Shown: one piece after another, positions 40,711 to 56,315 of the stretch | Layout: every line of letters begins with the position of its first letter | Numbering within the stretch: position 1 is the stretch's first letter | Origin: an uncultured Candidatus Saccharibacteria bacterium | GTDB taxonomy: Bacteria > Patescibacteriota > Minisyncoccia > Phycocordibacterales > SBAW01 | DNA length: 64,000 bases | Direction: 5' to 3' | Assembly (NCBI GenBank): GCA_964424235.1 | Contig: CAYRHY010000001.1 | Location: 2,830-66,829, forward strand | Notes under the pieces: generated by a model | The model's input: only the letters and a program-made list of their open reading frames with translations | Databases searched by the model: none | What the model was told of the DNA's origin: nothing | Position numbers and translations under genes: made by a program

Positions 40711-42354
40711 CTATGCAGTTGGTTGTACCAACAGCGGAATATCTACATAAAACTGCGTACCCTTCCCCACCCCTTCAGATGCGGCGGTGATGGTGCCGTG
40801 GTGTGCCTCTATAAATGTTTTTACAATAAAGAGTCCGAGCCCTGAGCCATTGTTGTTCACCTCCGCAGCATTATCACCACGACTAAACTTACTAAACATA
40901 TGCTTGAGCGTATCCTCACTCATACCAATACCCGTATCACGTATTTCAACGTGTGCCATAGCAGTACCCGGCATTTTGCGTAAGAGCACCGCGATGGATC
41001 CTTGGGGCGTGTACTTGGTCGCATTATCAATAATGTTTCCAAAAATCTGCTTGAGTTTGCCACTGTCTCCCCACACCATGACCTTTTCTTGTGGCACAGA
41101 AATCTCAAGCTTTAGACCTTTCATCTCTACACCAGGACGCAGCTCTGTCCCCACATCATTTAGTAGCACCGTAAGGTCTACTGGTCCAAACTGATACTGC
41201 ATTCTCCCCTGCTCGATACGCGACACATTAAGATAATCGTTGATCATGACCGCCATACCCGAGCTTTCATCAATGAGCGTTTTCATGGCGCTCTTAAGAT
41301 TATCAGGAAGCGGCCCATACGTGCCATCCATAATCGAGTCGATGCTCCAGCGAATAGCGGTAAGTGGTGTGCGCAGCTGATGAGATGCAAAGGAGAGGAA
41401 TTCGCTCTTTTCTTTATCTACTTCACGTAAGCGTGCGTTTGATAACTCAAGCTCATGTTCTTGCTTTTCAATAAGCTCTCGCTGCTTCACTTCCCTATTT
41501 ACGCTACGCACCAGGAAGTACCCAAAAACGAGCATAAAGATCAGAATTAACCCATCCAAGAGTGCGTAATTTATATCTGGCTCTGCAAACAATTTTCCAA
41601 AAAGAACAATATCTATTGTCGCCACTAGAGACTGTGTGAGGAGAATTTTAATGTCGAAGAGATGATACTGTGTGATGGCATACGCTGTCATACCCAAAAA
41701 AACAAGTACATAGAGAGGGGTGAATGGCAAAAACGCTGTTGTGTGGAAAAAAAGTAGTGGAACAAAAATCGTAAGAATAATGAGGGCAAGTAAAAGAAAT
41801 ATCCCGAAAAGCATCGTCCCTAGCTGATGTTTTACCTCATTTTCCGAGCGGAAATATGATCGTCCAAGAAAATAAATAGCTAGAATTGCAAAAATAGTGG
41901 AGAGGATAGCAAACGGTATTATTCCTGGTCCCGCCACGGGTTCACTGACAGAATTTACCCTGTGAACTGCAACAAATGCATACGGTGATACGTTGAGCGC
42001 CATAGAGAAAATAGTGAGACACGCACACACAAGAAAGCTCTTCTTGGGCAAGGTTATCGTGGGAGATGGCATTACATACCCAAGTAAAAAAAGGAAAAAG
42101 CTCATCGGTGCCGCTAAAAAGATACCCAAACGATGCAGTATAAGGGATACGTTATACAATTCTGGGATTCGTACCAAAAAAGTATCGAGCATCCAAAAAG
42201 CTGTAAAAAAAGTGAGAGCAACAAAAATTCTATTAGTAACGCTTTGAGGATTGTTCCTGTACACCAAAAAACCTATCGTCACTGAGCCCACCAACGCCAA
42301 CACAATTGCAACAAGTGAGAGTGGCGAATTGTAAGGGAGCGTGAAATGAATCAT
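40711..42354 (-). CDS. Sensor histidine kinase with N-terminal 7-8 TM sensor domain
   Basis: H-box FLSFASHQLRTPLTAI, N/G1/G2 boxes (IIDNATKYTP, DTGIGM, GSGLGL). Confidence 0.8.
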   Translation of the reverse strand: MIHFTLPYNSPLSLVAIVLALVGSVTIGFLVYRNNPQSVTNRIFVALTFFTAFWMLDTFLVRIPELYNVSLILHRLGIFLAAPMSFFLFLLGYVMPSPTITLPKKSFLVCACLTIFSMALNVSPYAFVAVHRVNSVSEPVAGPGIIPFAILSTIFAILAIYFLGRSYFRSENEVKHQLGTMLFGIFLLLALIILTIFVPLLFFHTTAFLPFTPLYVLVFLGMTAYAITQYHLFDIKILLTQSLVATIDIVLFGKLFAEPDINYALLDGLILIFMLVFGYFLVRSVNREVKQRELIEKQEHELELSNARLREVDKEKSEFLSFASHQLRTPLTAIRWSIDSIMDGTYGPLPDNLKSAMKTLIDESSGMAVMINDYLNVSRIEQGRMQYQFGPVDLTVLLNDVGTELRPGVEMKGLKLEISVPQEKVMVWGDSGKLKQIFGNIIDNATKYTPQGSIAVLLRKMPGTAMAHVEIRDTGIGMSEDTLKHMFSKFSRGDNAAEVNNNGSGLGLFIVKTFIEAHHGTITAASEGVGKGTQFYVDIPLLVQPTA

Positions 42355-42360
42355 ATATTC

Positions 42361-43416
42361 TTATGCTTGAAAATATGGCTGTTTCTTAAAAGAATGCGCT
42401 GTTGGTGGCTCTCCATAGCCAACACGAAACAACATGGCAATGGTCTGTTCTGGAGACACAGTACAAACTTTTTCAATACTTTTTTGTGCGAGCATTATTT
42501 GTTCAAGATGTTTCTGGGAAAAAACCGACCCTTCACCATCTCGAATTCGTTGAGCAAGATATGGGATTGCCACCATTGGCTGCAAGGACAAACCCATACG
42601 TGTCGCAGTAAGCCAAATGTGCTCAAAGACTCGCCCGGCGTTAAAAAAGAACTCGTTATCTTGCTTCGGAATTACTATTACCCCAATTGCACTGCAAGAT
42701 GCATACAAATTTTGCGTTTGCGCAGCTATTATTCGAGGTAAACCTAACAAAGAAAGTGTTCGAGCAATTGGCCACACAGGTAGCACATACTTAAACATCC
42801 CTTCAACAGGCATGGGTAATTCCATCGTTTTTACATATAATCCCGAACGTTTTTCTTCTTCCTCTTTAGTCCATCGAATAAGTCCAAAAAAGAAATCGTG
42901 TAATTCTTTATTTTGGATAAGGAGCTTTTCGTTGAGACTAACTGCGTGAGCGATCTTAGTAATTTCTTCTCGATTTTCTACCCATATTGTATGTATGCCA
43001 TATGTGTTTTCAGCTGCTTTTTTTAATGCATCTTTATGTTCCAGAGCCAGTGAGTTCTTAGCATATGGTTTCCGATTGGTCGTACGCGCTGGAATAGCAG
43101 TAGCCAGAAGCATCTCTTGGGGAAAATGCTGCGAAAATGAGAGTTCTGCAACAGACTTCTTCCCCTCAGGAAAAGGTTTTACACTCACACTGTACCCCTC
43201 GTTCGAGGCATACAGCACAATATTTTCAACAAGAGCGCCGTGTGCCACATATGAGCCTCGTTGTTTGTAATTGTATAAAGTCGCATCTGCACCATCTTGA
43301 TTAAAAATTTCTACTCCATTCGCAGTGTGCCGAAATTCCCACGGCTGTGCATTATCGCCGGAAGGCGCATTCATCGCAATCGCTATTATTTTTTCAAACG
43401 CTTCCCTTAGGACCAT
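42361..43416 (-). CDS. Tandem nitroreductase-fold (SagB/McbC-type dehydrogenase-like) protein
   Basis: 351 aa; N-terminal SGDNAQPWEF motif of the nitroreductase superfamily; second half repeats the fold (GRVFEHIWLTATRMGLSLQPM). Confidence 0.6.
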   Translation of the reverse strand: MVLREAFEKIIAIAMNAPSGDNAQPWEFRHTANGVEIFNQDGADATLYNYKQRGSYVAHGALVENIVLYASNEGYSVSVKPFPEGKKSVAELSFSQHFPQEMLLATAIPARTTNRKPYAKNSLALEHKDALKKAAENTYGIHTIWVENREEITKIAHAVSLNEKLLIQNKELHDFFFGLIRWTKEEEEKRSGLYVKTMELPMPVEGMFKYVLPVWPIARTLSLLGLPRIIAAQTQNLYASCSAIGVIVIPKQDNEFFFNAGRVFEHIWLTATRMGLSLQPMVAIPYLAQRIRDGEGSVFSQKHLEQIMLAQKSIEKVCTVSPEQTIAMLFRVGYGEPPTAHSFKKQPYFQA

Positions 43417-43444
43417 GCCTATATTATACTCTGACTATTCATCA

Positions 43445-44854
43445 ATGAATCATTCCTCTCGAGCCGAGTCGGAAGCAGTCAAATTTTTTAAAGAGACTTC
43501 ATTACGTGTTCCGGCATATAAAGATTTTTTACGTAAAGCAAAAGTCAATCCTGACAAAATTGAGACTTTTGAGGATTTCAAAAAAATACCACCAACAAAC
43601 AAACCTGACTACATAAGCGCTTATTCTCTTAAAGATTTGAGTTGGGATGGGACACTGTGTGACGCGCGGTACATCTCTTCAAGTTCAGGATCAACAGGTA
43701 TACCCTTCTATTGGCCGCGAGGGAACCAACAAAACGAGACGGTGGGTAAAATTTTTAAAAAATTATTCGAAGAATCTTTCGATACAAAAATTGGTTCTAC
43801 ACTTTTTGTTAATCTTTTCGCGCTCGGCACCTGGATCGCCGGGCTTGAATTTTATAATGGTGTCAAATATGTAGCGGACAAGGGAAGTTCGATTACCATA
43901 ATCACTCCTGGTATAGAAAAAACTGTTGCTTTGGATAGTATAAAACGTCTTGCTCCTCTCTTTGACCGCATAGTGCTTGCGGGATATCCACCATTTGTGA
44001 AAGATGTTTTAGATTCTGGAATTGCTGAAGGTATCGATTGGAACAAACACAATACATATTTATTGACTGCAGGCGAATCTTTTAGTGAGCTGTGGAGAGA
44101 ACACATCCTAGAAAAACTCGGTGGATCAAATGGACGGCATAGGGTCATTAATTTATACGGTATGGCTGAAACGGGAGTAATGGGTCATGAAACCCCAGTC
44201 TCCATCAGTATACGAAAAAATATTGCCGTATTACCGGAGCTGTCTGCTCTTCACATACCAGAGTCAGGAGGAATTGCTTTATATAATTATGATCCATTGG
44301 TCCGTTTTCTCGAGACAGAAGAAGATAATTCTCTTCTTCTCACTTCACGCGCTGGTTTACCTCTTATTCGATACAATACTCGCGATCAAGGAGGGTTGTT
44401 GTCTAAAGAAAATGTTCGGGAACTTTCAAAACGACTGCCCCAAATCCAATCCGTAATCACTTCCTGGCCCACCCCTATCGTCTACTTATACGGGAGAAAA
44501 GATTTATCACTTTCTTTTTATGCGTTGAATGTATACGTAGAGAATATAAAGTATTGTTTTGAAACATACCCTAATATAAAAAAACTCTCAGGTTTGTTTA
44601 TTATGCGGATTGAATCCTCGAAAAATTATGATCAAGAGTTCCACATCGTAGTAGAGTTGGCTCGCGGAGTAGCCAACCACAACGACGCAAAAATGGTTGA
44701 GCATGTGGTCAAAACACTGCCTCAAGTTAATAGTGAATACTCAAAATTATTAAGCTCTATTGCACATAGAGCTCATCCAAAAATTCGTTTTGTTCAATAT
44801 GGGACAATAGAAACAATTCCCGGCAAAAAACACCGTTGGGTTAAGCGAGTGTGA
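43445..44854 (+). CDS. PaaK/CapK/F390-synthetase-family adenylate-forming enzyme
   Basis: ORF from 43325 but likely start MNHSS (43445); SSSGSTGIPFYW (AMP-binding core-like), YGMAETGVMG. Confidence 0.55.
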   Translation: MNHSSRAESEAVKFFKETSLRVPAYKDFLRKAKVNPDKIETFEDFKKIPPTNKPDYISAYSLKDLSWDGTLCDARYISSSSGSTGIPFYWPRGNQQNETVGKIFKKLFEESFDTKIGSTLFVNLFALGTWIAGLEFYNGVKYVADKGSSITIITPGIEKTVALDSIKRLAPLFDRIVLAGYPPFVKDVLDSGIAEGIDWNKHNTYLLTAGESFSELWREHILEKLGGSNGRHRVINLYGMAETGVMGHETPVSISIRKNIAVLPELSALHIPESGGIALYNYDPLVRFLETEEDNSLLLTSRAGLPLIRYNTRDQGGLLSKENVRELSKRLPQIQSVITSWPTPIVYLYGRKDLSLSFYALNVYVENIKYCFETYPNIKKLSGLFIMRIESSKNYDQEFHIVVELARGVANHNDAKMVEHVVKTLPQVNSEYSKLLSSIAHRAHPKIRFVQYGTIETIPGKKHRWVKRV

Positions 44855-45905
44855 CTTTTTTAGGTTTCTTGGGGTTGTTTTGGGCTCGCGTTTTTATAAA
44901 AGAATAATCACATCCCATTACATATCTCCCCGAGGGCAAGCTTTGTTTGGTTGTGATGCTTCGCACAGCAAAAGCAACCGCGACACCAGCCAAAGATGCT
45001 GCTGTGCCGAGTTGCGCCACCCCCGCAAGAGTCTTACCTATCTCTTGCACTGAATCCCATTGTCGTTTCGTAAAAAGTTTAGGGTCTATGATCTGATTTG
45101 CTAAAGCAACAAAGCGTTCGCGAGTGAGGTGCCCCGAATTGGAGGGTACTTTTTTAATACGGCCATGGAAAATGGGTTGTCTTTTGTCTAGATCAAACCG
45201 CTCAACATCAAGTATGACACTATCTCCATTATCAGTAGCCATAACAACAGGGATGCCCGCTTTTTTACAAGCGTATCGTACAGCGAATTTCATTTGTATG
45301 TTGTCCATTTCATCTACAAACACGTCGAGGTTTCGTACGAAATGAGCTATTGATGTAGTATCGATACCTTTCTCCCATGACTCTATTTTCAAAAATGGAT
45401 CTATTTCCCATGCGGCGCGTGCGACAATATCCACCTTGTTTAAACCAACATCAAGAACAGTGCCTCGAATACGATTAAGGTTTGTGATTTCTAAAATATC
45501 CGGATCTGCAATTCGTACACTTTGTGGTCCACCCGTAGATACTAACGTCAGCAGCGCTGCAGATCCCACAGAAAGACCGGCTATACCTACCCTACTAGAT
45601 CTATAGGCTACTTGCTCGTTTGGGAAGATAAGATTTCTATTTCGAGCTGTCCGCAAACGGAAATATATTGATTCTTCTGGAATACACACTGCTGTGTTGC
45701 GCCATGGATAATAGACCCATACCCCAGTATTTTTGTGTATGTAATCCTGTACGTATTTTTTTAAAGCTATATGGTCGTGGCGTCCTTTTGCTATGTACGG
45801 ATGCTCAATAAAATATAATTCTGTAAAAGCACTCTGGCGCGTATCGAGTTTTTTACAAGTACGAGGTAGTTTTGAAGGGTTTGTATAAAAAACTGGTTTT
45901 TGCAC
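44841..45905 (-). CDS. E1-like ThiF/MoeB/MccB-family protein with ~100-aa N-terminal extension
   Basis: 354 aa; Rossmann GxGxxG RVGIAGLSVGSAALLTLVSTGG; N-terminal domain preceding it resembles the peptide-binding clamp of MccB/PaaA-type enzymes (architecture-based). Confidence 0.65.
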   Translation of the reverse strand: MQKPVFYTNPSKLPRTCKKLDTRQSAFTELYFIEHPYIAKGRHDHIALKKYVQDYIHKNTGVWVYYPWRNTAVCIPEESIYFRLRTARNRNLIFPNEQVAYRSSRVGIAGLSVGSAALLTLVSTGGPQSVRIADPDILEITNLNRIRGTVLDVGLNKVDIVARAAWEIDPFLKIESWEKGIDTTSIAHFVRNLDVFVDEMDNIQMKFAVRYACKKAGIPVVMATDNGDSVILDVERFDLDKRQPIFHGRIKKVPSNSGHLTRERFVALANQIIDPKLFTKRQWDSVQEIGKTLAGVAQLGTAASLAGVAVAFAVRSITTKQSLPSGRYVMGCDYSFIKTRAQNNPKKPKKVTLA

Positions 45906-45916
45906 GTTCGTAATTT

Positions 45917-46309
45917 TTATGCTGTTTTTTCGAGTGCTTCGCGAATCTTATCAACCACAATAACGGGCGTGGTATCTGCTTTTACTAAATAAAATACTGG
46001 TTCGTATACCTCGATAGCTTTAATTATTTGATCACTATCGGGAGTCAAATTGGTGAGCATAATCACTGGCACATTCGCGCCATAGGGAATATTTTTTCGC
46101 AGCTGCTGGAGCATCGCGAGTCCATCGGTGCCAGGCATCATGATGTCGAGGATCACTACCGCAGGGTGTTTGCGCAGCGCTAACTCAAGCCCTTCGGCAC
46201 CATCCCCTGCTTCAACTGTTTGATATCCTTCATCGCGTATTTTTTGCGAAAGCATAGAACGTAGCGCCTTTTCGTCTTCGACTATAAGAATTGTGTGTGC
46301 CTCAGGCAT
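45917..46309 (-). CDS. Stand-alone response regulator receiver (CheY-like)
   Basis: ILIVEDEKALRSMLSQKIRDEGY...VVILDIMMPGTDGL...NVPVIMLT. Confidence 0.8.
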   Translation of the reverse strand: MPEAHTILIVEDEKALRSMLSQKIRDEGYQTVEAGDGAEGLELALRKHPAVVILDIMMPGTDGLAMLQQLRKNIPYGANVPVIMLTNLTPDSDQIIKAIEVYEPVFYLVKADTTPVIVVDKIREALEKTA

Positions 46310-49280: not shown

Positions 49281-49787
49281 ATGCACGAAGGGATTCGGTG
49301 GCAGGTCTTCACCCACGAACAGCGCGATCGTTCAGTAGATTGGTACTGGGGATTTGGTATTTTGGCAGTGGTTGGTATTGGTCTGTGCGTCTATTTTAAT
49401 AATTTCCTTTTTGCGCTCATCCTCGCTCTAGCCTCACTCTCAATTGGGATTTTGCTTGCGCGCGGCCCCCGCGAGCACGAGGTACACGTGCACCCGCGCG
49501 GTGTGACGCTCGATGGCACCCTCTACCCCTACTCCTCTCTACAATCCTTTTGGGTTACGGTTGAAGATCCGTATCAGCTGGGTATCCCCCAGGAGTATCA
49601 CGAAGAATTTGAGCCACGCGCCCACCTCTTGCTTACCACCCACAGTTATATCCACCCTCACGTGACCATTCCACTGGATGATCTAGACCACGCTCAAGAA
49701 GTGCGTGATTATTTAGTCGCATACGTAACCGAAGAGGAGCAGGACCGCCACTTTAGTGAGCATATCGCTGAAGCTCTTGGTTTATAA
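49281..49787 (+). CDS. Hypothetical membrane protein
   Basis: 168 aa; two N-terminal TM helices. Confidence 0.35.
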
Positions 49788-49832
49788 GCAAATCTGGTGT
49801 ACTTTGAGTATGCTCAGCTTTCGTGAGCAGCT

Positions 49833-49904
49833 GCCCTCGTCGTTCAATGGATAGGACGCATCCTTGCGGAGGATGTAATGTGGGTTCGATTCCTGCCGAG
49901 GGCA
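49833..49904 (+). tRNA. tRNA-Arg-like element (anticodon GCG), possibly degenerate
   Basis: GCCCTCG TC GTTC AATGGATA GGAC G CATCC TTGCGGA GGATG TAAT GTGGG TTCGATT CCTGC CGAGGGC A; perfect acceptor and anticodon stems but T-stem has two G·U pairs and the GCG anticodon is unusual. Confidence 0.5.
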
Positions 49905-49993
49905 CTTGTGTAACAAGTGACCGAGCCTGGCGCCCCTTCGTAGCTTTAGCGAAGTGGGGCCGAGGACACTTGAAAGTAGAAAGGGTCTTAAAC

Positions 49994-50018
49994 AAAAATC
50001 CGCCCTAGGCGGATTTTT
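49994..50018 (+). terminator. Palindromic terminator AAAAATCCGCC-CTA-GGCGGATTTTT
   Basis: 11-bp stem flanked by A-run and T-run; downstream of the tRNA-like element on + and near the dinG 3' region on -. Confidence 0.4.
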
Positions 50019-50029
50019 GTTATTTATAA

Positions 50030-50073
50030 TGTTTTATTTATATAAAAATGACGGGTGGATTTCTCCACCCGTC
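50030..50073 (-). terminator. Rho-independent terminator of the dinG-like gene
   Basis: 10-bp stem GACGGGTGGA/TCCACCCGTC (50050-50073) followed on the minus strand by AUUUUUAUAUAAAUAAAAC. Confidence 0.5.
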
Positions 50074-50147
50074 CCGTACTGCGCATTACCGTTCCTGAGT
50101 CAAGTAAACCATACTGCTACTTACCAGGGGGCGCAGAGCCCAACCGT

Positions 50148-51932
50148 TTAGCCCAACAACTTCAGTGCATCACCCTCACACTGCGCGAAGGTCAGGTCAC
50201 CACGGTACGCAGGACGCAACCACTCAGGCAGAGATGCGAAGGCGAAACGCCGGAACTGTTGTGAGATAAGGAAGGTAACCCCGATGTCCGTTTCCGAACG
50301 GATATTCCGCCCACGAACCTGAAGCAGGTCCAGCATCACGCGCCAATTCCACAGCGACCACCGACGGCGACCGAAGCGCCTCTCCTCAAAACCTGCTTGC
50401 GGGTCCGTTGGATTAGGATAACCTGGCCGGAAGCTGAAGATGATCGGAGCAATCTGCTTCGGTAGATCGATACCCTCACCATAGTTAGCGACAGTACCGA
50501 CCAAACAGTCTCCTTCGCCACAGCGGAAGCGCGTTGCGCACTGCCGGGGTGTATGCCCTTTACCATAGGAAATTGCATTAAGCCCTTCCTCGGCCGCAAG
50601 CATGAGGAAATTTTCCCGCTCATCGTTTGAAACTACGATGATAAGCGAGCGATGCCCCTTGTTAGCGAACCGCTTCGCACTCCGAGCAATGAGACGTAGC
50701 ATGCGGGTTTTATCCCGTTTCTGTCGTCCTTTCACCGAAAGATCTGCGGTATCGGTAGGTAGGTAGATGCGCGCGTTCTTGGCGGGGAATGTTGACGGTA
50801 TCGAATGATACGCACCCTTGCTCCCCGTCTCGAACGCAAATACATCTGGGTCGCTTATAGTTGCCGAGTACGCCAGTGTACGCTTGGGGAGCAGCCTGCG
50901 GATAATGGGGACAACGTAGTAGTCCCTCACTACAACGCGATACTGCACCCGTTCCCGCTCACCCATCTCCGTCTTGCCATATGCTATGACGAAGGAGAGA
51001 GGGTAGCCACGTTCAGTCGCGCCCGTGAGAGCGTATTTCAACGCGTGACGAAACCGACGCACGCTTCGCGCGATTTCCTCCAACTGCTTGAGGACTTCAC
51101 GGTCATCGTCCGCATCAAGGTCGCCGCTGCGCAACGCTTTGCGGGTATCAGCTTCGAGCGCTTCAGGGTTAACATTGCTAAGTACGTCATAAAGCCGTTG
51201 CACGTCGTCTTCTTCCAACAGTGTCTCTTGGTCCATTGCGCGGCGTTTGACAAGACTCTTCATGCGCTTGAGGAATTCCCCTAGCGTGTGACACTGCCCT
51301 GAGCCCACAGCGTTGAGTGCCTCGATACCCTTGGCAAGCTTCCAGTCGGTGAGCTCCGTTGAGAGTACTAAGCGGATGGACTGTGCCAACCGATGTGCTT
51401 CGTCTATGACCACCCCTTGCGGTTCGAATTCTTGCGAGAACAAAACCACGAAGAGGTAGAAAGCGCTGGTGCACACCACGATGCCAGTGCTTTGCTTTGC
51501 TTCGTACTTTTGTCGAAGGTACGGGCATGGCAAAGTGCCAACAGTGTGCGTCTCACCGGTCTCCTGATCCACCCGATGTGGGCAGTCAGCGAGTATTGAA
51601 CACGGGATCTCGTCTGCCTTCAACTCTTGGCCGGGGTAGTAGAGACACGGATACTCGTTACGACCGTACACAACGCTCACATCTGGATGCAGGACCTTCA
51701 CCTGCTCAGCGAGAGTTTTGTTTGGCACGACATAGAACAGGCCGTGTTTACCCAGCCGCCCGAGAGCGGTGAGGTAGGTGTAGCCAATCGCGGTCTTGCC
51801 GCTCCCTGTTGGAAGTTCTAGCACAACGACGCCATCTTCCCTGCGGAGAATGGTGAGCGCTGTGATCTGCGCATCCTTCATGGAAGGATACCGATCGATA
51901 GGGAATGACCCAATCAGATCGAGATGTTGCAT
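50148..51932 (-). CDS. dinG: Rad3/XPD-type DinG-like ATP-dependent helicase with Fe-S cluster domain
   Basis: Walker A ELPTGSGKTAIG, four-Cys Fe-S insert (YPCLYYPGQELKADEIPCSILADCPHRV...LPCPY), DEAH box VIDEAHRL, C-terminal helicase motifs; start set at MQHLDLIG with GGAGAAA SD 8 nt upstream (ORF extends to 52046). Confidence 0.8.
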   Translation of the reverse strand: MQHLDLIGSFPIDRYPSMKDAQITALTILRREDGVVVLELPTGSGKTAIGYTYLTALGRLGKHGLFYVVPNKTLAEQVKVLHPDVSVVYGRNEYPCLYYPGQELKADEIPCSILADCPHRVDQETGETHTVGTLPCPYLRQKYEAKQSTGIVVCTSAFYLFVVLFSQEFEPQGVVIDEAHRLAQSIRLVLSTELTDWKLAKGIEALNAVGSGQCHTLGEFLKRMKSLVKRRAMDQETLLEEDDVQRLYDVLSNVNPEALEADTRKALRSGDLDADDDREVLKQLEEIARSVRRFRHALKYALTGATERGYPLSFVIAYGKTEMGERERVQYRVVVRDYYVVPIIRRLLPKRTLAYSATISDPDVFAFETGSKGAYHSIPSTFPAKNARIYLPTDTADLSVKGRQKRDKTRMLRLIARSAKRFANKGHRSLIIVVSNDERENFLMLAAEEGLNAISYGKGHTPRQCATRFRCGEGDCLVGTVANYGEGIDLPKQIAPIIFSFRPGYPNPTDPQAGFEERRFGRRRWSLWNWRVMLDLLQVRGRNIRSETDIGVTFLISQQFRRFAFASLPEWLRPAYRGDLTFAQCEGDALKLLG

Positions 51933-51950
51933 GGTCTGATTTCTCCAAGG

Positions 51951-51992
51951 TGTTGTAGAAAAAGTAGCGAGCGAGACAAATGTCTCGCTCGC
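51951..51992 (-). terminator. Strong hairpin plus U-run between hammerhead A and dinG start (terminator/attenuator candidate)
   Basis: 12-bp stem GCGAGCGAGACA/TGTCTCGCTCGC followed on the minus strand by UACUUUUUCUACAACA, ~20 nt before the dinG SD. Confidence 0.4.
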
Positions 51993-52057
51993 TCCGGACA
52001 CAACGCGAGTGGGCATTAGTGCACCTAATACTGGCCTACTGCACACTTATTAAAGAA

Positions 52058-52112
52058 CTCCCGATTTCGTCCTTTCGGACTCATCAGCCGCGACACACAT
52101 CGCGATATCGGG
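52058..52112 (-). ncRNA. Hammerhead ribozyme, type III (HHR-A)
   Basis: Minus strand: CCCGAU-A|UCGCGA-UGUGUG-UCGCGG-CUGAUGA-GUCC-GAAA-GGAC-GAAA-UCGGGAG. Complete core (C3U4G5A6U7G8A9, G10.1:C11.1, G12A13A14, A15.1:U16.1, H17=A); helices I, II and III all paired. Confidence 0.75.
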
Positions 52113-52203
52113 GTTGTCGGAGAGTCCCGAAGGACTCTCCAGACCCTAACAGTACATGACTGAACACTACCAGAACGCAGATTACTCAGCAGAACAGGAT
52201 TGG

Positions 52204-52560
52204 TTACTCAGAGAAATTTGATTCCCACCGCTCACTGATTTCAACCATAAGGCGTTGGGCAGCTTGTTGACTCTTTGTTGTAATTTGCATTTGCTGAGCT
52301 GCATTGCGAGCTACAAGTACAAGAAAAATTCGTTTACCTGGAATATAGCCAATAGCCCGTGGTGTTAAGGCAGCAGCGCCTGTAAAAATCTTTCCAAACG
52401 CTACCATTGTCACATCTGGGTTATCAACCAACCAATTAGCTAATGGGAGCGCTGCGGTAATAACTGTCCTGTGTTTGTATATCTTTTTATGGCTACACAC
52501 ATGAATGGCGTGCGCACCACGGTACTGATCGTCATTCTTTAGTGGCATCTTACACTCCAT
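52204..52560 (-). CDS. Hypothetical small protein (118 aa) embedded in the structured-RNA array between HHR-B and HHR-A
   Basis: MECKMPLKNDDQYRGAHAIHVCSHKK...; ATG immediately 3' of hairpin 52574-52599; no family recognised; coding status uncertain. Confidence 0.35.
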   Translation of the reverse strand: MECKMPLKNDDQYRGAHAIHVCSHKKIYKHRTVITAALPLANWLVDNPDVTMVAFGKIFTGAAALTPRAIGYIPGKRIFLVLVARNAAQQMQITTKSQQAAQRLMVEISERWESNFSE

Positions 52561-52667
52561 TTAGACAAAGAGTGTTGGGGAGTCTTAAGACTCCCCAACC
52601 CAGACCAGACTGCACGCCACTACACCTTGCGTTTCCTGACGATACGAGAAAAGCGACATCAAAGATC

Positions 52668-52723
52668 ATCTCGATTTCGCCCTTTTGGGCTCATCAGGCC
52701 GGACACACATCCGACTATCGAAA
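52668..52723 (-). ncRNA. Hammerhead ribozyme, type III (HHR-B)
   Basis: Minus strand: UUUCGAU-A|GUCGGA-UGUGUG-UCCGGC-CUGAUGA-GCCC-AAAA-GGGC-GAAA-UCGAGAU. Same core as HHR-A with compensatory changes in helices I (GUCGGA/UCCGGC), II (GCCC/GGGC) and III. Confidence 0.75.
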
Positions 52724-52811
52724 TGTCGGAGAGCACGAAAGCTCTCCGACCCACACGCTACAAGACTGTAGTCCGCAAAAGCGCACCGCGACGCACTCAA
52801 CATTAAAGGTA

Positions 52812-52864
52812 CTTCTGTTTCATCCTTTCGGAATCATCAGGCCGGACACACATCCGACTACAGA
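52812..52864 (-). ncRNA. Hammerhead ribozyme, type III (HHR-C), possibly weakened (U10.1·U11.1)
   Basis: Minus strand: UCUGU-A|GUCGGA-UGUGUG-UCCGGC-CUGAUGA-UUCC-GAAA-GGAU-GAAA-CAGAAG. Full core, but helix II opens with a U·U; helix I identical to HHR-B. Confidence 0.6.
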
Positions 52865-53370
52865 GGCAGAGAAATTTCCCTGCCACACTTACTTAAAAGA
52901 ACGAAGGGATTGGTGGGTGAAGTTTCCAACACCCACCCCAAACTGGGCCAAACGCAACTTAAGTCTACTTAGGCCAACAGAATCAGTTGTCGAGAGACAT
53001 CACGTCTCTCGACCCAAACAGTACCCTAGACTGCTCTAGCAGGCGGGAGCGAGGTGGACTGAGCCCTTCAGTAGTGAACTGCATTAGGTTGTCGGGAGAT
53101 AAAGATTCCCGACCCGAACCGGTCCTGACGCGAGCACACTGTTGTCTGCGCTTGCAATATTGAACCTTTCAGCAACAGCTGTCGGGAAGCCTTACGGCTC
53201 CCCAACCCATAGACCTGCATAACGAAGGGGACGCTGCTGAGCCCTTCTGTACTGGAGCAAACGACTCCTCGGTGCAAAAGTTTGTCGGAGAACTCAGAAA
53301 AGTCCTCCCATCTGAACCGCGGCATTTAGCTCCAGACCACTCGGCACAAAGCCGAGGAAAGCCTGACAGC

Positions 53371-54057
53371 TTAGGCCGCCAGCTTCACCTGCTGCTCCAT
53401 CTCGATGAAGTCAGTCACCCGGAACCGGCCGAACGGGCCGCGCTTACTGGGACGGAAATCTCCGAGACCGGAAAAGCGTCCGGCCGCATTGAACAGCTCC
53501 TGCACCTTCTCGATGGCGATCTGGTCGTGGTCAACCTCGATCGTGACGTCGAATGCCCAGGTCGGGAACTTTGGCCGCACGATGGCGACCGCCGCCCCGT
53601 TTGCTGCCAGCACGCCGCGACGCTTGTCGGCAATCCACTTCACCTCCGACTGGTTGAGGAACGGGATGAACCCGTCGCCCTTGTCGTCGATGAGGTCCGA
53701 CACAATCGAAAGGAATGCCGGTACCAGCGAGGATTCGCGTGTGGACACCTTGGTCTTCTTGTCGAAGATTATGTGCCGACCAGCATCCACGAGTGCAGCA
53801 AACAAATAGTTGGCTGGGAAGCCGAACTCTTTATTTGGTCCGAGACACAGCTTTTCCTTAGCCATGTCTTCTATTGACTGCTCCTTGGGCGGCTTACGCT
53901 TGCCCGCCGAGCCGTAGATCAACTCGTCCAACACTGCGTCGGTCATGGGGTTCTGCAGCATGGGCGAGATGCCCGCGCAGCTTACCAAGTACGTGCCGAT
54001 GCCGCTCTTCACGCTGGACTTCTGGTTGCTATTTGCCGAAGCTAGGGACTTGGCCAT
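53371..54057 (-). CDS. Hypothetical protein (228 aa) with glycine-rich C-terminal loop, first gene of the island
   Basis: Strong SD GGAGG 5 nt before ATG; sequence ...AGRFSGLGDFRPSKRGPFGRFRVTDF near the C-terminus resembles the G-rich loops of RAMP-type RNA-binding proteins. Resemblance only; no confident family. Confidence 0.55.
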   Translation of the reverse strand: MAKSLASANSNQKSSVKSGIGTYLVSCAGISPMLQNPMTDAVLDELIYGSAGKRKPPKEQSIEDMAKEKLCLGPNKEFGFPANYLFAALVDAGRHIIFDKKTKVSTRESSLVPAFLSIVSDLIDDKGDGFIPFLNQSEVKWIADKRRGVLAANGAAVAIVRPKFPTWAFDVTIEVDHDQIAIEKVQELFNAAGRFSGLGDFRPSKRGPFGRFRVTDFIEMEQQVKLAA

Positions 54058-54100
54058 ATGGCCCTCCGTAGGTTAGTTGTTACCGGAACAGCCAAAACAG

Positions 54101-54117
54101 GCCTCCGAAAAGGAGGC
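54101..54117 (-). terminator. Hairpin GCCTCC-GAAAA-GGAGGC between rpsT and the 228-aa gene (rpsT terminator candidate; -35/-10-like TTGACA...TATAGC just upstream on the minus strand)
   Basis: 6-bp GC stem with U-tracts on both sides; minus-strand TTGACA-N15-TATAGC precedes it. Confidence 0.35.
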
Positions 54118-54155
54118 TATATTAAAATTTGTTTTTTGTCAATAAATGTGTCGCT

Positions 54156-54398
54156 TTACGCCTTAAGGAGTTTGGCGATCTTTGCCTTGCGGCGAGCGGC
54201 GGTATTCTTCTTTATAATGCCGCGTTTGAGCGCCTTATCGATCGCCTTGTAGGCAGCGCTCAGTGCCACCTTGTCGCCCTTAGGAGCGAGGCGTGCTGTC
54301 TTGGTTGCTGCGCGCACAGCCTGCTTACGCACTTGATTCATAGTGCGCTTGCGCAGTGACTGGCGGTGAGCCTTTTTTGCACCTTTGGTAATTGCCAT
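54156..54398 (-). CDS. rpsT: 30S ribosomal protein S20
   Basis: 80 aa, Lys/Ala/Arg-rich MAITKGAKKAHRQSLRKRTMNQVRKQAVRAATK... typical S20. Confidence 0.85.
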   Translation of the reverse strand: MAITKGAKKAHRQSLRKRTMNQVRKQAVRAATKTARLAPKGDKVALSAAYKAIDKALKRGIIKKNTAARRKAKIAKLLKA

Positions 54399-54477
54399 AT
54401 GTGCGGGACACTATAGCAACATTTTCCCCATAGCGCAATAACTGGCTACCTTGGGGCGGGCACGGTAAGCTAGAGTC

Positions 54478-55056
54478 ATGATAGGTAAACTCACCGGCAC
54501 CCTCGACTCGCTTGAGGCGGGCCAGGCGCTCATCGACGTCTCGGGGGTGGGATATGTGGTCCGGGTGCCTACGGGATTTCAGAGCCTCCTCCCCCAAGGA
54601 GCTCGGGTGACTCTCTTTATATACACCGCGGTGCGCGAAGACGCGATCGATCTGTATGGCTTTACCAGCACAGAAGAGCTTGGGTTCTTTAAACTCCTGA
54701 TGGGTGTTTCCGGTGTGGGCCCTAAAACAGCGCTCGGCATCATGAGTGTTGCTGACGTGCTCTCGCTCAAACGTGCAATAGCGAAGGGTGACGCCGCAGC
54801 GCTCACCTCTACCTTTGGTATCGGCAAGAAAAGTGCAGAGCGCTTAGTGGTCGAGTTGCGCGATAAAATTAAACTACTGCCAGAGACTACTCCTGAAGCG
54901 ACTTCGGATGCTGACGTGATCGAAGCGCTCCAAGGTCTTGGCTATAGTGCAACTGAAAGCCGCAAGGCGCTGCGCGACATCTCCCCCGCTCTTGTGGGAA
55001 CGCGTGAGCGTTTAGCCGCCGCACTGCGCACTTTAGGAACCAACACAGCAGTATGA
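54478..55056 (+). CDS. ruvA: Holliday junction DNA helicase subunit RuvA
   Basis: MIGKLTGTLDSLEAGQALIDVSGVGYVVRVP, HhH motifs GVSGVGPKTALGI / GIGKKSAERL. Confidence 0.85.
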   Translation: MIGKLTGTLDSLEAGQALIDVSGVGYVVRVPTGFQSLLPQGARVTLFIYTAVREDAIDLYGFTSTEELGFFKLLMGVSGVGPKTALGIMSVADVLSLKRAIAKGDAAALTSTFGIGKKSAERLVVELRDKIKLLPETTPEATSDADVIEALQGLGYSATESRKALRDISPALVGTRERLAAALRTLGTNTAV

Positions 55057-56315
55057 GACGCTTCATCCCCAAGAAAATTCTTTCGCTCTATCATCTTGCC
55101 TACGCGCTTGGGGGCTCATGGTGGTATAGCAACCCTTCAGCAAAACTCTGCGTAATAGGTGTCACCGGCACCAAGGGTAAATCGAGTGTCTCTGAATTGG
55201 TGCGCACCGTACTCGCGAGCGCCGGATACAAGGTGGCGCTCGCTTCAACTATCCACTTTCGCATAGGCGACGACATAGAGCCTAATCTCTACAAAATGAC
55301 TATGCCTGGCCGCGCACGGCTGCAAAAATTTATGCGCAAAGCAGTTGCCGCTGGATGCACCCACGCGGTTATTGAGATGACCTCCGAGGGCGCGAAGCAG
55401 TTTCGCCACAAAGGTATCGCGCTTGATGCACTCATTTTCACCAACCTACAGCCCGAACATATAGAGTCGCATGGCTCTATGGAAGCCTATGCTGCAGCCA
55501 AGTTTTCTCTTGCGAAAGGTTTAGTAGAATCACACAAGCGTCCACGCATTATTGTTGCAAACGCAGACGATGCGTACGGAGAAAAATTTCTTGATATACC
55601 AGTTGAGGTGAAGGTGCCTTTTTCTTTGCGTGAAGCAGAACCGTACAATGTTGATGATACGAGTGTGCGCTTTGTGTATCACAACGAAGTGTTCAGTGTG
55701 CCGCTGCCTGGACTTTTTAATTTACGCAATGTGCTTGCAGTGCTCGGACTCGGGAGTGCTCTTGGTATCGATATCAAAGTGATGAAGAAAGCACTTGAGC
55801 ATGTGGCTCCTATTAAAGGTCGCGCGGAGCGAGTTGAAGCGGGCCAGGATTTTACAGTCATAGTTGATTATGCACACACCCCCGACTCTCTTAAAGCATT
55901 GTTTGAAACATACCGAGGCAACAACCTCGATCGCCGCATTATTGTCCTCATGGGCTCAACTGGTGGCGGACGCGACCAGTGGAAGCGCCCAGAGATGGGT
56001 CGCATCGCCGATGAGTATTGTGACGTTGCAATTCTTGCAAATGAAGATCCTTATGACGAAAACCCGAACAAGATTTTGGGCGCCATAGCAGAAGGGTTTT
56101 CAGTGCATACGCCGCATATTGTTTTTGACAGACGCGAAGCTATCCGCGAAGCGCTGCGCCAAGCCTGCCCAGGAGACGTAGTATTACTCACTGGTAAAGG
56201 CACTGATCCATTCATTATGGGGCCTCATGGTTCTAAAGAGCCCTGGAGTGATAAGGGGGTTGCTGAAGAAGAGCTGCATAAGCTCCTAGGAAAGGTGGAG
56301 AATGCGGTAGAATAA
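55053..56315 (+). CDS. murE: Mur ligase family protein (MurE-like, lacks N-terminal domain)
   Basis: IGVTGTKGKSSVSEL (P-loop), DYAHTPDSL motif, C-terminal Mur ligase domain. Confidence 0.65.
   Translation: MRRFIPKKILSLYHLAYALGGSWWYSNPSAKLCVIGVTGTKGKSSVSELVRTVLASAGYKVALASTIHFRIGDDIEPNLYKMTMPGRARLQKFMRKAVAAGCTHAVIEMTSEGAKQFRHKGIALDALIFTNLQPEHIESHGSMEAYAAAKFSLAKGLVESHKRPRIIVANADDAYGEKFLDIPVEVKVPFSLREAEPYNVDDTSVRFVYHNEVFSVPLPGLFNLRNVLAVLGLGSALGIDIKVMKKALEHVAPIKGRAERVEAGQDFTVIVDYAHTPDSLKALFETYRGNNLDRRIIVLMGSTGGGRDQWKRPEMGRIADEYCDVAILANEDPYDENPNKILGAIAEGFSVHTPHIVFDRREAIREALRQACPGDVVLLTGKGTDPFIMGPHGSKEPWSDKGVAEEELHKLLGKVENAVE

What the first reader, a model, noticed from the sequence alone, without database searches (positions are those of the whole stretch)
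52116..53370. Array of divergent but isostructural hairpins, not CRISPR-like, with minus-strand-only G·U pairs and a duplicated 190-nt module
About eight hairpins spaced 90-160 nt apart share the minus-strand pattern GGGUYGGRGAG-(4-9 nt loop)-CUCYCCGACAAC, with 9-12-bp stems. They sit at 52116-52146, 52574-52599, 52724-52752, 52865-52884, 52989-53013, 53091-53113, 53181-53207 and 53284-53309. Their stems are not identical, as CRISPR repeats would be, but carry compensatory substitutions (GUCGGAGAG/CUCUCCGAC, GUCGAGAGAC/GUCUCUCGAC, GUUGGGGAGUC/GACUCCCCAAC, GUCGGGA/UCCCGAC) and often GNRA/UUCG-type loops. At least four stems have G·U pairs that exist only in the minus-strand RNA. Two adjacent ~190-nt modules (53121-53317 and 52925-53120) each hold two hairpins plus a shared CUGAAGGGCUCAG spacer motif, so the region grew by tandem duplication of structured RNA units. 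Two of the hairpins sit directly 5' of hammerheads, where they would cap the 3' end left by self-cleavage. Possible roles: an array of processed small RNAs, protein-binding sites for the flanking gene products, or 3'-end stabilisers of ribozyme-processed mRNA segments.
Basis: seen in the sequence. Interest (0 to 1): 0.8.

Follow-up and report, generated by a model that had tools for sequence, protein, structure and literature searches.

The report
VIPR guide-RNA array with hammerheads
The hairpins are real and cap the 3' ends of about ten guide RNAs of a VIPR system, a CRISPR-related RNA-guided DNA-binding system first described in 2026 preprints, so this is a clear new example of a just-described kind.

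Summary
Eleven belong to the locus, not eight.

They are the minor part of the feature. Ten of the eleven are preceded, exactly in phase, by 8-18 tandem pentamers of the type Y-N-N-N-G.

The 228-aa gene just upstream (53371-54057) is a homolog of the SUSP1 Vipr protein, a minimal Cas7-like RAMP. A profile of its relatives matches PDB 36pp at E 2.9e-10.

A DinG-family helicase gene (50148-51932) follows the array. Three complete type III hammerheads cut 6-10 nt downstream of three of the hairpins.

This matches the VIPR systems of bioRxiv 10.64898/2026.04.26.720920: a Vipr protein, pentamer-repeat vrRNAs with a structured 3' tail, an accessory helicase, and hammerhead-interspersed arrays.

The same layout recurs in about 25 Patescibacteria loci. 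Their stems are isostructural but differ in sequence.

No DNA target was found, and no expression data exist.

It is a new member of a known, very recent kind.

The parts
53371..54057 (-). vipr gene: 228-aa minimal RAMP (Cas7-like), the presumed vrRNA-binding filament protein
   Evidence: phmmer to PDB 36pp_D 'SUSP1 Vipr protein' gives E 1e-3. A profile of 43 homologs gives E 2.9e-10 over residues 15-201. The AF2 model has pLDDT 86. Foldseek top PDB hits are Csm3 and type VII Cas7. Viral solo RAMPs match at TM 0.67-0.73. phrog_4652 matches at E 3.6e-14.
53287..53366 (-). vrRNA unit a: pentamer tract about 53307-53366 (may reach 53396, overlapping the vipr stop codon) plus hairpin H8 53287-53308
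   Evidence: 12 of 18 pentamers fit [^G]NNNG; fold z -3.0
53181..53271 (-). vrRNA unit b: tract 53207-53271 (interrupted near its 3' end) plus hairpin H7 53181-53206
   Evidence: fold z -5.4
53091..53153 (-). vrRNA unit c: tract 53114-53153 plus hairpin H6 53091-53113
   Evidence: fold z -2.1
52989..53083 (-). vrRNA unit d: tract 53014-53083 plus hairpin H5 52989-53013
   Evidence: fold z -4.6
   Evidence: fold z -2.4
52865..52884 (-). hairpin H4 with no pentamer tract, directly 5' of hammerhead 1; a degenerate unit or a helper stem
   Evidence: 0 of 12 pentamers in phase; fold z -4.4
52813..52865 (-). hammerhead 1 (type III); predicted cleavage between 52859 and 52858
   Evidence: Rfam RF00008 34.1 bits, E 6e-5, below the gathering score of 48.5; core and three helices checked in alignment A2
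52725..52805 (-). vrRNA unit f: tract 52751-52805 plus hairpin H3 52725-52750
   Evidence: fold z -5.6
52670..52722 (-). hammerhead 2 (type III); predicted cleavage between 52716 and 52715
52574..52649 (-). vrRNA unit g: tract 52600-52649 (10 of 10 pentamers fit) plus hairpin H2 52574-52599
   Evidence: fold z -4.7
52204..52548 (-). conserved small ORF (114 aa from the second ATG) embedded in the array; function unknown, candidate additional accessory protein
   Evidence: 33-42% identical homologs sit at the same position in L002, L003, L004, L006 and L048. No hit in Pfam, PADLOC, NCBIfam, PHROGs or PDB.
52116..52199 (-). vrRNA unit h: tract 52145-52199 plus hairpin H1 52116-52144 (one bulge)
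   Evidence: fold z -3.5
52060..52112 (-). hammerhead 3 (type III); predicted cleavage between 52106 and 52105
51966..52048 (-). vrRNA unit i: tract 51994-52048 plus 12-bp hairpin H0 51966-51993 followed by ACUUUUUC (terminator-like), just before the helicase start
   Evidence: fold z -7.2
50148..51932 (-). accessory gene: DinG/XPD-family SF2 helicase (594 aa from the ATG at 51932)
   Evidence: Pfam Helicase_C_2, DEAD and ResIII. PADLOC typeIV_DinG model E 3.6e-32, full length. phrog_2488 DNA helicase E 2e-39. Adjacent to vipr in most Patescibacteria loci.
50050..50143 (-). vrRNA unit j downstream of the helicase: tract 50074-50143 plus hairpin H-1 50050-50073 followed by AUUUUUAU
   Evidence: fold z -5.7

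Best explanation
The region is the guide-RNA array of a chromosomal VIPR (Viral Interference Programmable Repeat) system in a Patescibacteria genome.

Locus order, all on the minus strand: vipr (228-aa minimal RAMP), five vrRNA units, a tract-less hairpin with hammerhead 1, a vrRNA with hammerhead 2, a vrRNA, a conserved 114-aa ORF, a vrRNA with hammerhead 3, a vrRNA, a DinG-family helicase gene, and a last vrRNA.

Each vrRNA unit has three parts:
- a tract of 8-18 pentamers Y-N-N-N-G;
- the dinucleotide GG ending the tract;
- a 7-12-bp hairpin that starts on the very next base, nearly always a G paired to a C, followed by A(A/C).

Proposed mechanism:
1. The locus is transcribed as long minus-strand precursors. 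This is inferred from three points: all parts are co-oriented, no sigma-70-like promoter lies inside the array, and U-tract hairpins occur only at the last two units.
2. The three type III hammerheads self-cleave after UA. Each releases the upstream vrRNA with its hairpin plus a 6-10-nt tail ending in a 2',3'-cyclic phosphate. The sequence and covariation are shown here; the chemistry follows from established hammerhead knowledge.
3. Vipr protomers bind one per pentamer. They sequester the fixed G(G)Y positions and present the variable bases. This is inferred by homology to the SUSP1 cryo-EM structures; the G/Y-contacting residues are conserved.
4. The hairpin is the 3' cap. It plays the role of the SUSP1 3' pseudoknot: it ends the repeat tract in a fixed register, blocks further filament growth, and protects the 3' end. 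Its sequence is free as long as it pairs, which explains why the stems are isostructural yet divergent.
5. The RNP binds double-stranded DNA of an invader through the gapped code, and the helicase acts on the bound target. This step is inferred.
For: **Protein.**
- A single-sequence search hits PDB 36pp_D (SUSP1 Vipr) at E 1e-3.
- A profile of 43 homologs hits it at E 2.9e-10 over nearly the full length.
- Residues that bind GGY in SUSP1 are H17, R138, D177, W178 and R179 (paper 10.64898/2026.04.26.720927). They align to N36, R161, D200, F201 and R202, which are invariant or nearly so in the family.
- The AF2 model (pLDDT 86) matches Csm3/Cas7 and viral solo RAMPs.

**RNA.**
- 86 of 119 pentamers upstream of ten hairpins fit [^G]NNNG in phase.
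- The in-phase count is 71 of 132, against 5-25 in the other four phases. The null is 31 +/- 4.7; excluding the anchor pentamer, z = 8.4.
- Composition: p1 is Y at 0.85 and never G, and p5 is G at 0.68. This is the YNNNG variant named in the VIPR paper's methods.
- Tracts of at least 8 of 10 fitting pentamers occur on the minus strand only in this locus.
- Positive control: the same detector finds exactly four tracts on the vipr strand of phage SUSP1, one upstream and three downstream, as published. There too a stem starts right after GG.

**Hairpin-tract link.** At tract ends defined without looking at pairing, 50 of 83 start a stem of at least 7 bp on the next base. The control rate is 6.2% of 5838 sites. 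There are 38 distinct 5' arms among the 50, with 4-6 pair types per stem position.

**Family.**
- Among the 47 related loci fetched, the helicase lies next to vipr in 24 of 29 Patescibacteria loci.
- Tracts are almost exclusively on the array strand.
- The arrays have the same unit structure in L004, L010, L012 and L048.

**Hammerheads.**
- The only three CUGAUGA..GAAA sites in the window are here, all on the minus strand.
- In a 24-sequence alignment, 94% of cells are paired, 14 of 16 pairs change on both sides, and the core is invariant.

**Literature.** The VIPR paper describes hammerhead-interspersed vrRNA arrays and helicase or nuclease accessory genes in types III-V.
Against: - The repeats are weaker than canonical GGY/NN. 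G at p4 is only 0.36, and several tracts are interrupted (H7, H0, H5).
- H4 has no tract at all.
- No target was found with the 1-nt-skip rule. Three viral-collection scans found nothing, local scans found nothing, and the metagenome scan gave only chance-level hits. The published rule may not hold for YNNNG repeats.
- Similarity to SUSP1 Vipr is remote: about 20% identity, convincing only with a profile.
- Nothing shows how the five units without hammerheads get their ends.
- There are no expression or binding data.
- The reference work is two preprints, and I could not see their figures. The VIPR type (I, IV or V) cannot be assigned.
Confidence: 0.85

Rival explanations
1. A degenerate or atypical CRISPR array of a minimal type IV-like system. 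The Cas7-like protein plus DinG helicase would be the effector, the hairpins would be diverged repeats, and the sequence between them would be spacers.
For: The partner protein has a Cas7/Csm3-like fold. The helicase matches a PADLOC type IV-A DinG model at E 3.6e-32. Type IV and type I crRNAs carry a 3' hairpin handle (own knowledge).
Against: - There are no near-identical direct repeats and no regular spacing.
- The 'spacers' are 5-nt periodic, which CRISPR spacers are not.
- No Cas5, Cas6, Cas8, Cas1 or Cas2 was found among the seven neighbouring ORFs screened against PADLOC.
- The helicase scores 22.7 bits against a cut-off of 400 for the NCBIfam Csf4 equivalog.
- By sequence the protein is closest to Vipr.
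Confidence: 0.05
2. The hairpins are ordinary transcription terminators, attenuators or mRNA 3'-end stabilisers of a ribozyme-processed operon, with no guide function.
For: H0 and H-1 are followed by U tracts and score as terminator-like. In more distant relatives (L018, L013, L017, L027) nearly every hairpin is followed by AUUUUUAU. Three hairpins would end up at the 3' ends left by hammerheads.
Against: - Eight of the eleven window hairpins lack a U tract.
- About 1.1 kb holds nine hairpins but only one short ORF, so there is little mRNA to stabilise.
- This reading does not explain the in-phase pentamer tracts, the fixed GG|G junction, or the constant linkage to a RAMP gene.
- A terminator function in some clades is compatible with the cap role rather than a rival to it.
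Confidence: 0.05
3. A cluster of mobile or selfish repeats, either REP/MITE-like palindromes or a hammerhead-bearing retrozyme or satellite-like element, inserted between two genes.
For: Hammerheads often mark such elements (own knowledge). Hammerheads 1 and 2 are 88% identical over 43 nt. The GC content of 52-53 kb is slightly lower.
Against: - The hairpins occur in one orientation and only in this locus of the 64-kb window.
- The units are not copies of each other.
- The same gene-array-gene layout is kept across Patescibacteria at 40-70% protein identity. One locus (L006) shares flanking synteny: rpsT, ruvA, a murE-like gene and the 168-aa ORF.
Confidence: 0.03

Closest known systems
VIPR type II system of Escherichia phage SUSP1 (bioRxiv 10.64898/2026.04.26.720920 and 10.64898/2026.04.26.720927; PDB 36pp)
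   Same: - A small solo RAMP with the same G-loop motif: GDWRP..FGRF in SUSP1 and GDFRP..FGRF here.
- Arrays of roughly 100-nt units next to the gene on the same strand.
- Each unit is a tract of tandem pentamers, then GG, then a stem that starts with G on the next base.
- An accessory gene sits beside vipr.
   Different: - The repeats here are YNNNG (G1 weakly kept) rather than YNNGG.
- The 3' cap is a plain hairpin of free sequence, not an invariant hairpin-pseudoknot.
- The units are separated by hammerheads or short linkers.
- The accessory gene is a DinG-type helicase rather than a small DNA-binding Vap1.
- The host is a Patescibacteria chromosome, not a phage.
- H17 of SUSP1 is N36 here.
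Hammerhead-interspersed vrRNA arrays of VIPR types I and V; helicase or nuclease accessory genes of types III-V (same preprint, text and legends of figs S19-S22)
   Same: Hammerhead ribozymes lie between adjacent vrRNAs, with cleavage at the vrRNA boundary. A helicase is the accessory gene. The location is chromosomal.
   Different: I cannot say. The figures and data tables were not readable, so I could not assign the type or check whether this very locus is in their set of 667 systems. Here only three of ten junctions carry a hammerhead, and a 114-aa ORF sits inside the array.
Type IV-A CRISPR-Cas (Csf2/Cas7 filament on the crRNA, DinG helicase Csf4, crRNA with a 3' hairpin handle)
   Same: Works alike in outline: a RAMP filament on a guide RNA with a 3' hairpin, plus a DinG-family helicase and no obvious nuclease.
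   Different: - There are no CRISPR repeats, no Cas6/Csf5, no Cas5 and no Cas8-like subunit.
- The guide is 5-nt periodic, not contiguous.
- The helicase fails the Csf4 equivalog cut-off.
- It is not a member of this family.
Type III hammerhead ribozyme (Rfam RF00008)
   Same: The CUGAUGA and GAAA cores are present. Stems I and II are closed and stem III is open. The cleavage site is U-H (UA here; UC or UA in relatives). Covariation is seen in all three stems.
   Different: This is a minimal form: 6-bp stem I with a UGUGUG loop and 4-bp stem II with a GAAA or AAAA loop. All three score below the Rfam gathering threshold (34, 23 and 18 bits).

Membership tests
VIPR system | Vipr protein: a small solo RAMP homologous to characterised Vipr (RRM core, thumb, G-loop) | tested here: met
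   A profile of 43 homologs hits PDB 36pp_D at E 2.9e-10 over residues 15-201 of 213 profile positions. The Cas7/Csm3 fold is the top PDB match. The G-loop GLGDFRPSKRGPFGRF is conserved.
VIPR system | Residues that hold the GGY bases in SUSP1 Vipr (H17, R138, D177, W178, R179) | tested here: met
   They align to N36, R161, D200, F201 and R202. Four of the five are identical or conservative changes, and H17 becomes N. All are invariant or at least 90% conserved in the family.
VIPR system | vrRNA: at least 4 tandem pentanucleotide repeats (YNNGG, or the variants NNNGG, YNNNG, NNNNG) flanking vipr | tested here: met
   Ten tracts of 8-18 pentamers; 86 of 119 fit [^G]NNNG. z = 8.4 against window controls. 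The composition is YNNNG. The same detector recovers the four published SUSP1 vrRNAs.
VIPR system | Structured 3' tail directly after the repeat tract | tested here: met
   A hairpin starts on the base after the terminal GG in 10 units. Family-wide the rate is 60% against 6% in controls. It is a simple hairpin of variable sequence, not the invariant pseudoknot of the SUSP1 clade.
VIPR system | Minimal locus with one accessory (vap) gene and no CRISPR array or cas operon | tested here: met
   The helicase lies next to vipr here and in 24 of 29 Patescibacteria loci. No CRISPR-like repeats exist in the 64 kb. No Cas hit other than helicase-family models among the 7 neighbours. The rest of the window was not screened for cas genes.
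VIPR system | vrRNAs are expressed, processed to about 100 nt and co-purify with Vipr | not testable with these tools
   No RNA-seq or biochemistry is available.
VIPR system | Gapped (1-nt-skip) recognition of natural DNA targets, typically in phages | tested here: inconclusive
   Exact-match scans of the viral collection with three patterns from units g and h found nothing. Local mismatch-tolerant scans gave chance-level scores for skip lengths 0, 1 and 2. The metagenome scan gave 5 hits from 3 independent sequences, with 2-3 of 6 matches in the extension, which is chance.
Hammerhead ribozyme, type III | Conserved catalytic core (CUGAUGA ... GAAA), A15.1-U16.1 pair, and H at position 17 | tested here: met
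   The core columns are invariant in 24 sequences. U9-A51 pairs in 24 of 24. Position 17 is A in the three window copies.
Hammerhead ribozyme, type III | Three helices supported by covariation | tested here: met
   94% of cells are paired, against 72% in shuffles and 30-46% when partners are slid. 14 of 16 pairs change on both sides. Stems I and II were partly used to select the sequences. Stem III was not, and it is 93% paired.
Hammerhead ribozyme, type III | Score above the Rfam gathering threshold | tested here: not met
   34.1, 23.0 and 17.8 bits against cut-offs of 48.5 and 52. There was no hit in gathering mode.
Hammerhead ribozyme, type III | Self-cleavage | not testable with these tools
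   Needs an in vitro transcription and cleavage assay.
CRISPR array | Near-identical direct repeats at regular spacing with unique, non-periodic spacers | tested here: not met
   Apart from the hammerheads (88% and 69-79% identical), the largest direct-repeat family in the region is three 30-nt hairpin copies at 67-83% identity. Tandem Repeats Finder finds nothing. The inter-hairpin sequence is 5-nt periodic.
Type IV CRISPR helicase Csf4 (DinG) | Match to the curated Csf4 family model | tested here: not met
   NCBIfam TIGR03117 scores 22.7 bits against a cut-off of 400. It does resemble one PADLOC typeIV_DinG model (E 3.6e-32) and phrog_2488 (E 2e-39). It is a DinG/XPD-family member, not demonstrably Csf4.
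Intrinsic (Rho-independent) terminator | GC-rich hairpin followed directly by a U tract | tested here: not met
   Only 51966-51993 and 50050-50073 have a clear U tract. 52574-52599 is a weak match. The other eight hairpins are followed by A(A/C)N....

The most novel reading that the evidence does not exclude
The Patescibacteria clade could be a mechanistically distinct VIPR subtype. Four features would set it apart:
- Only one G and the pyrimidine are fixed per pentamer (YNNNG, with H17 replaced by N36). Up to three bases per repeat might then be read, and the published 1-nt-skip code might not apply.
- The 3' cap is a sequence-free hairpin.
- Maturation is partly by hammerheads.
- The effector partner is a DinG-type helicase.

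This would resemble type IV CRISPR interference and could mark a step between VIPR and CRISPR. It would also give bacteria that mostly lack CRISPR a vertically kept RNA-guided defence.
Probability: 0.25. Interest if true: 0.7.

Novelty: new member of a known kind. Interest (0 to 1): 0.42.

Why it matters
[quoted passage not shown] This locus is a compact, fully annotatable example in a Patescibacteria chromosome, with ten guides, three ribozymes, a helicase and an unknown small protein.

It shows three things directly from sequence:
- The 3' cap needs only shape, not sequence.
- The repeat consensus can relax to YNNNG.
- The system is widespread and syntenic in a lineage that rarely carries CRISPR.

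It also gives concrete guide sequences whose targets could reveal which phages or other elements these ultrasmall bacteria fight. It does not establish a new kind of system.

Tried and rejected
**Rfam.** Gathering mode found only tRNAs. The hammerheads appear only in E-value mode. A weak RAGATH-32 hit (14 bits) over hairpin H1 was dismissed as chance.

**Target search, 1-nt-skip patterns.**
- Unit g with 13, 10 and 9 pentamers and unit h with 11 pentamers gave no exact hit in viral contigs.
- Nothing was found in the window with up to 3 mismatches.
- I tested 118 guides from all held loci against all held sequence with skip lengths 0-3. Skips 0, 1 and 2 were indistinguishable (best 14-17 of 20). 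Skip 3 only finds the guide's own gene.
- The metagenome scan gave 5 hits from 3 independent sequences, one in what looks to me like a transporter-type gene (judged from the peptide only; I ran no search on it). The extension matched 2-3 of 6. I rejected these as chance.

**The 114-aa ORF.** No family or PDB match, even with a 6-sequence profile. The big protein search returned only itself. Single-sequence AF2 was useless, with pLDDT 36.

**Other dead ends.**
- The afdb50 fold library was unavailable.
- Contig look-ups for P0089 and P0002 gave no DNA.
- The helicase has no PDB sequence match at E <= 1e-3.
- The 190-nt tandem-duplication idea: the alignment has only about 44% identical columns.
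- I did not build a covariance model of the hairpin. The tract-anchored count answered the question with less selection bias.
Full report
**1. What is in the sequence**

I read 51800-53700 on the minus strand.

Folding each on both strands shows equal stability for the perfectly Watson-Crick stems. The minus strand is clearly more stable for those with G-U pairs: -13.1 against -6.8, -19.8 against -11.8, and -11.8 against -7.9 kcal/mol.

I folded eleven hairpins with 5-nt flanks against 200 dinucleotide shuffles. The z-scores run from -2.1 to -7.2. In every case the stem starts at the sixth base, right after a GG.

- 52912-52937;
- 51966-51993, just before the helicase start;
- 50050-50073, just after the helicase stop.

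On the minus strand of the whole window, 8 of the 11 GG-anchored hairpins lie in this 3.3-kb locus. The plus strand has two.

No CRISPR-like repeat exists anywhere in the 64 kb, and Tandem Repeats Finder sees nothing in the locus.

The two '190-nt modules' align at only about 44% identical columns, with a few shared blocks. An old duplication is possible but not demonstrated.

**2. The hammerheads**

The pattern CUGAUGA...GAAA occurs only three times in the window, all on the minus strand in this locus. Rfam finds them only below the gathering score, at 34, 23 and 18 bits.

I aligned them, without gaps, with 21 copies from related loci. The results:
- The catalytic core is invariant.
- 94% of cells pair, against 72% in shuffles and 30-46% when partners are slid.
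- 14 of 16 pairs show changes on both sides.
- Stem III, which I did not use to pick the sequences, is 93% paired.

They are minimal type III hammerheads. They should cleave after UA at 52859|52858, 52716|52715 and 52106|52105. These sites lie 6, 9 and 10 nt after hairpins H4, H3 and H1.

**3. The neighbours give the identity**

The window is a Patescibacteria-like chromosome: RuvA, S20, PolA, PilB and seven tRNAs.

*The upstream gene.* The 228-aa ORF at 53371-54057, same strand, has no Pfam, PADLOC or NCBIfam hit. It does match one PDB chain, 36pp_D 'SUSP1 Vipr protein', at E 1e-3 over the glycine-rich loop.

A profile of 43 of its 88 database relatives raises this to E 2.9e-10 over almost the whole length. 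Its AlphaFold model (pLDDT 86) is closest to Csm3 and type VII Cas7 among solved structures. Among viral models it is closest to three phage proteins, one of which its source record names a RAMP-superfamily protein. It also matches phrog_4652.

*The downstream gene.* The ORF at 50148-51932 is a DinG/XPD-type helicase.

**4. The literature**

A search for 'Vipr' led to two 2026 preprints. They describe the following:
- VIPR systems consist of a small ancestral RAMP (Vipr), usually one accessory gene, and vrRNAs of about 100 nt.
- Each vrRNA is made of 9-16 tandem YNNGG pentamers followed by a structured 3' tail, which is a pseudoknot in SUSP1.
- One Vipr protomer binds each repeat, hiding GGY and presenting NN.
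- DNA is read with one skipped base per repeat.
- There are seven types. Variant repeats are NNNGG, YNNNG and NNNNG.
- Hammerhead-interspersed arrays are shown for types I and V.
- Helicases or nucleases are the accessory genes in types III-V.

**5. Testing that model here**

*Pentamer tracts.* I read the sequence upstream of each hairpin in steps of five from the GG. Ten of the eleven hairpins are preceded by a tract of pentamers with a non-G first base and a G last base.
- 86 of 119 pentamers fit.
- In the 60 nt before the hairpins, 71 of 132 pentamers fit in phase, against 5-25 in the other four phases.
- Random GG-anchored sites elsewhere on the same strand give 31 +/- 4.7. Leaving out the anchoring pentamer, z is 8.4.
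- p1 is a pyrimidine in 85% and never G. p5 is G in 68% and p4 in 36%. p2 and p3 are unbiased. This is the YNNNG variant.
- Tracts with at least 8 of 10 fitting pentamers occur on the minus strand only in this locus; the plus strand has one chance hit.

*Positive control.* I fetched the SUSP1 locus. The same detector finds exactly four tracts, all on the vipr strand, one upstream and three downstream, as published. There too a stem begins with G on the base after the last GG.

*Residues.* The SUSP1 residues that hold the GGY bases are H17, R138, D177, W178 and R179. They align to N36, R161, D200, F201 and R202, all conserved in the family.

**6. Related loci**

A genome scan returned 47 loci, 29 of them Patescibacteria.
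- The helicase lies beside vipr in 24 of those 29.
- Pentamer tracts are almost entirely on the array strand.
- G frequency upstream of 294 hairpins oscillates between 0.05 and 0.5 with period five. The other strand does not show this.
- The arrays of L004, L010, L012 and L048 (the last at 72% Vipr identity) have the same unit structure, but with unrelated guide tracts and different stems.

To avoid choosing hairpins by their pairing, I defined tract ends from the pentamers alone. Of 83 such ends, 50 start a stem of at least 7 bp on the next base, against 6.2% of 5838 control sites. The 50 stems have 38 different 5' arms and 4-6 pair types at each position. The base after the stem is A in 74%.

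So the structure and its position are conserved, and the sequence is not.

Two further points:
- Hammerheads occur only in the closer relatives. More distant ones follow each hairpin with a U tract or a TTGAC-like box, as if each vrRNA were its own transcription unit.
- L006 shares the flanking genes of the window, which points to long chromosomal residence.

**7. How it most likely works**

- *Shown:* the parts, their order, their strand, the phase relation, the covariation, and the homology of the protein.
- *Inferred from the SUSP1 work:* Vipr polymerises on each tract, one protomer per pentamer. The hairpin caps the 3' end as the SUSP1 pseudoknot does and fixes where the filament ends. The base after GG is a paired G, where the repeat would need a pyrimidine.
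- *Inferred from hammerhead chemistry:* cleavage leaves the upstream vrRNA with its hairpin and a short tail ending in a cyclic phosphate.
- *Unknown:* how the five units without a hammerhead are separated, what the helicase does at the target, what the 114-aa protein does, and what the guides target.

**8. What failed**

Target searches under the published skip rule gave nothing above chance. The paper used an 80% match criterion, so this is a weak negative.

The 114-aa ORF stayed unidentified. I could not read the preprint's figures or data tables. I therefore cannot assign the VIPR type or say whether this contig is already in their catalogue.

**9. Verdict**

It missed the guide tracts and the CRISPR kinship.

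The feature is a hammerhead-interspersed VIPR vrRNA array with a DinG-type accessory helicase. It is a new member of a kind described a few months earlier. Interest is moderate.

Noticed in passing
window 52204-52548 (-): A conserved small ORF sits inside the vrRNA array. It is 114 aa from the second ATG, beginning MPLKNDDQYRGAHA, with a GGAG ribosome-binding site. Homologs of 33-42% identity occupy the same place in L002, L003, L004, L006 and L048. No hit was found in any family or structure library.
   Followed up: partly
window 52796-52806, 52653-52663, 52045-52057, 52893-52903; L001-L004 and L048 after each hammerhead: Every hammerhead of this sub-clade is followed within about 10 nt by a (G)WYCUUU(U)RA motif, for example GUUCUUUAAUAAG. 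It is complementary to the stem II loop plus 3' strand (GAAAGGAC), so it could form an alternative helix. A similar GGUCUUUUAAUAAGG precedes SUSP1 vrRNAs. It may be a switch, a 5' leader or a processing signal.
   Followed up: partly
L010 5140-5190, 5450-5490, 5750-5790, 6350-6390, 6650-6690: In L010, units that lack a hammerhead carry instead a conserved CUCUUUGAUUCAUUAGCUCAUUGCAAAAUGAGC element with a 6-bp hairpin. It may be another boundary, promoter or processing element.
   Followed up: no
L013, L017, L018, L027 (hairpins followed by AUUUUUAU); L020 (hairpins followed by TAATTTGAC): In more distant Patescibacteria VIPR loci the cap hairpins look like intrinsic terminators. In L020 a -35-like box follows each one. 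This suggests one promoter and one terminator per vrRNA instead of ribozyme processing.
   Followed up: no
L006 versus window 49281-56315: L006, a Parcubacteria MAG with 42% Vipr identity, has the same flanking genes around its VIPR locus: a murE-like gene, ruvA and rpsT on one side and the 168-aa ORF on the other. This implies vertical inheritance of a chromosomal system.
   Followed up: partly
window 41000-46000: A low-GC stretch (0.40-0.44 against about 0.50) holds a 509-aa and a 354-aa ORF. The minus strand at 41650-42700 shows raised period-5 G power, but no pentamer tract passes the 8-of-10 test there.
   Followed up: partly
window 23173-23340: A 21-nt tandem repeat of 5.5 copies at 81% match, probably a 7-residue repeat inside a coding region.
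   Followed up: no
L012 7668-7756 and 9928-10016: Two hammerheads carry a 41-nt insertion in stem II (a long GC-rich extended stem) in place of the usual 12-nt stem-loop.
   Followed up: no
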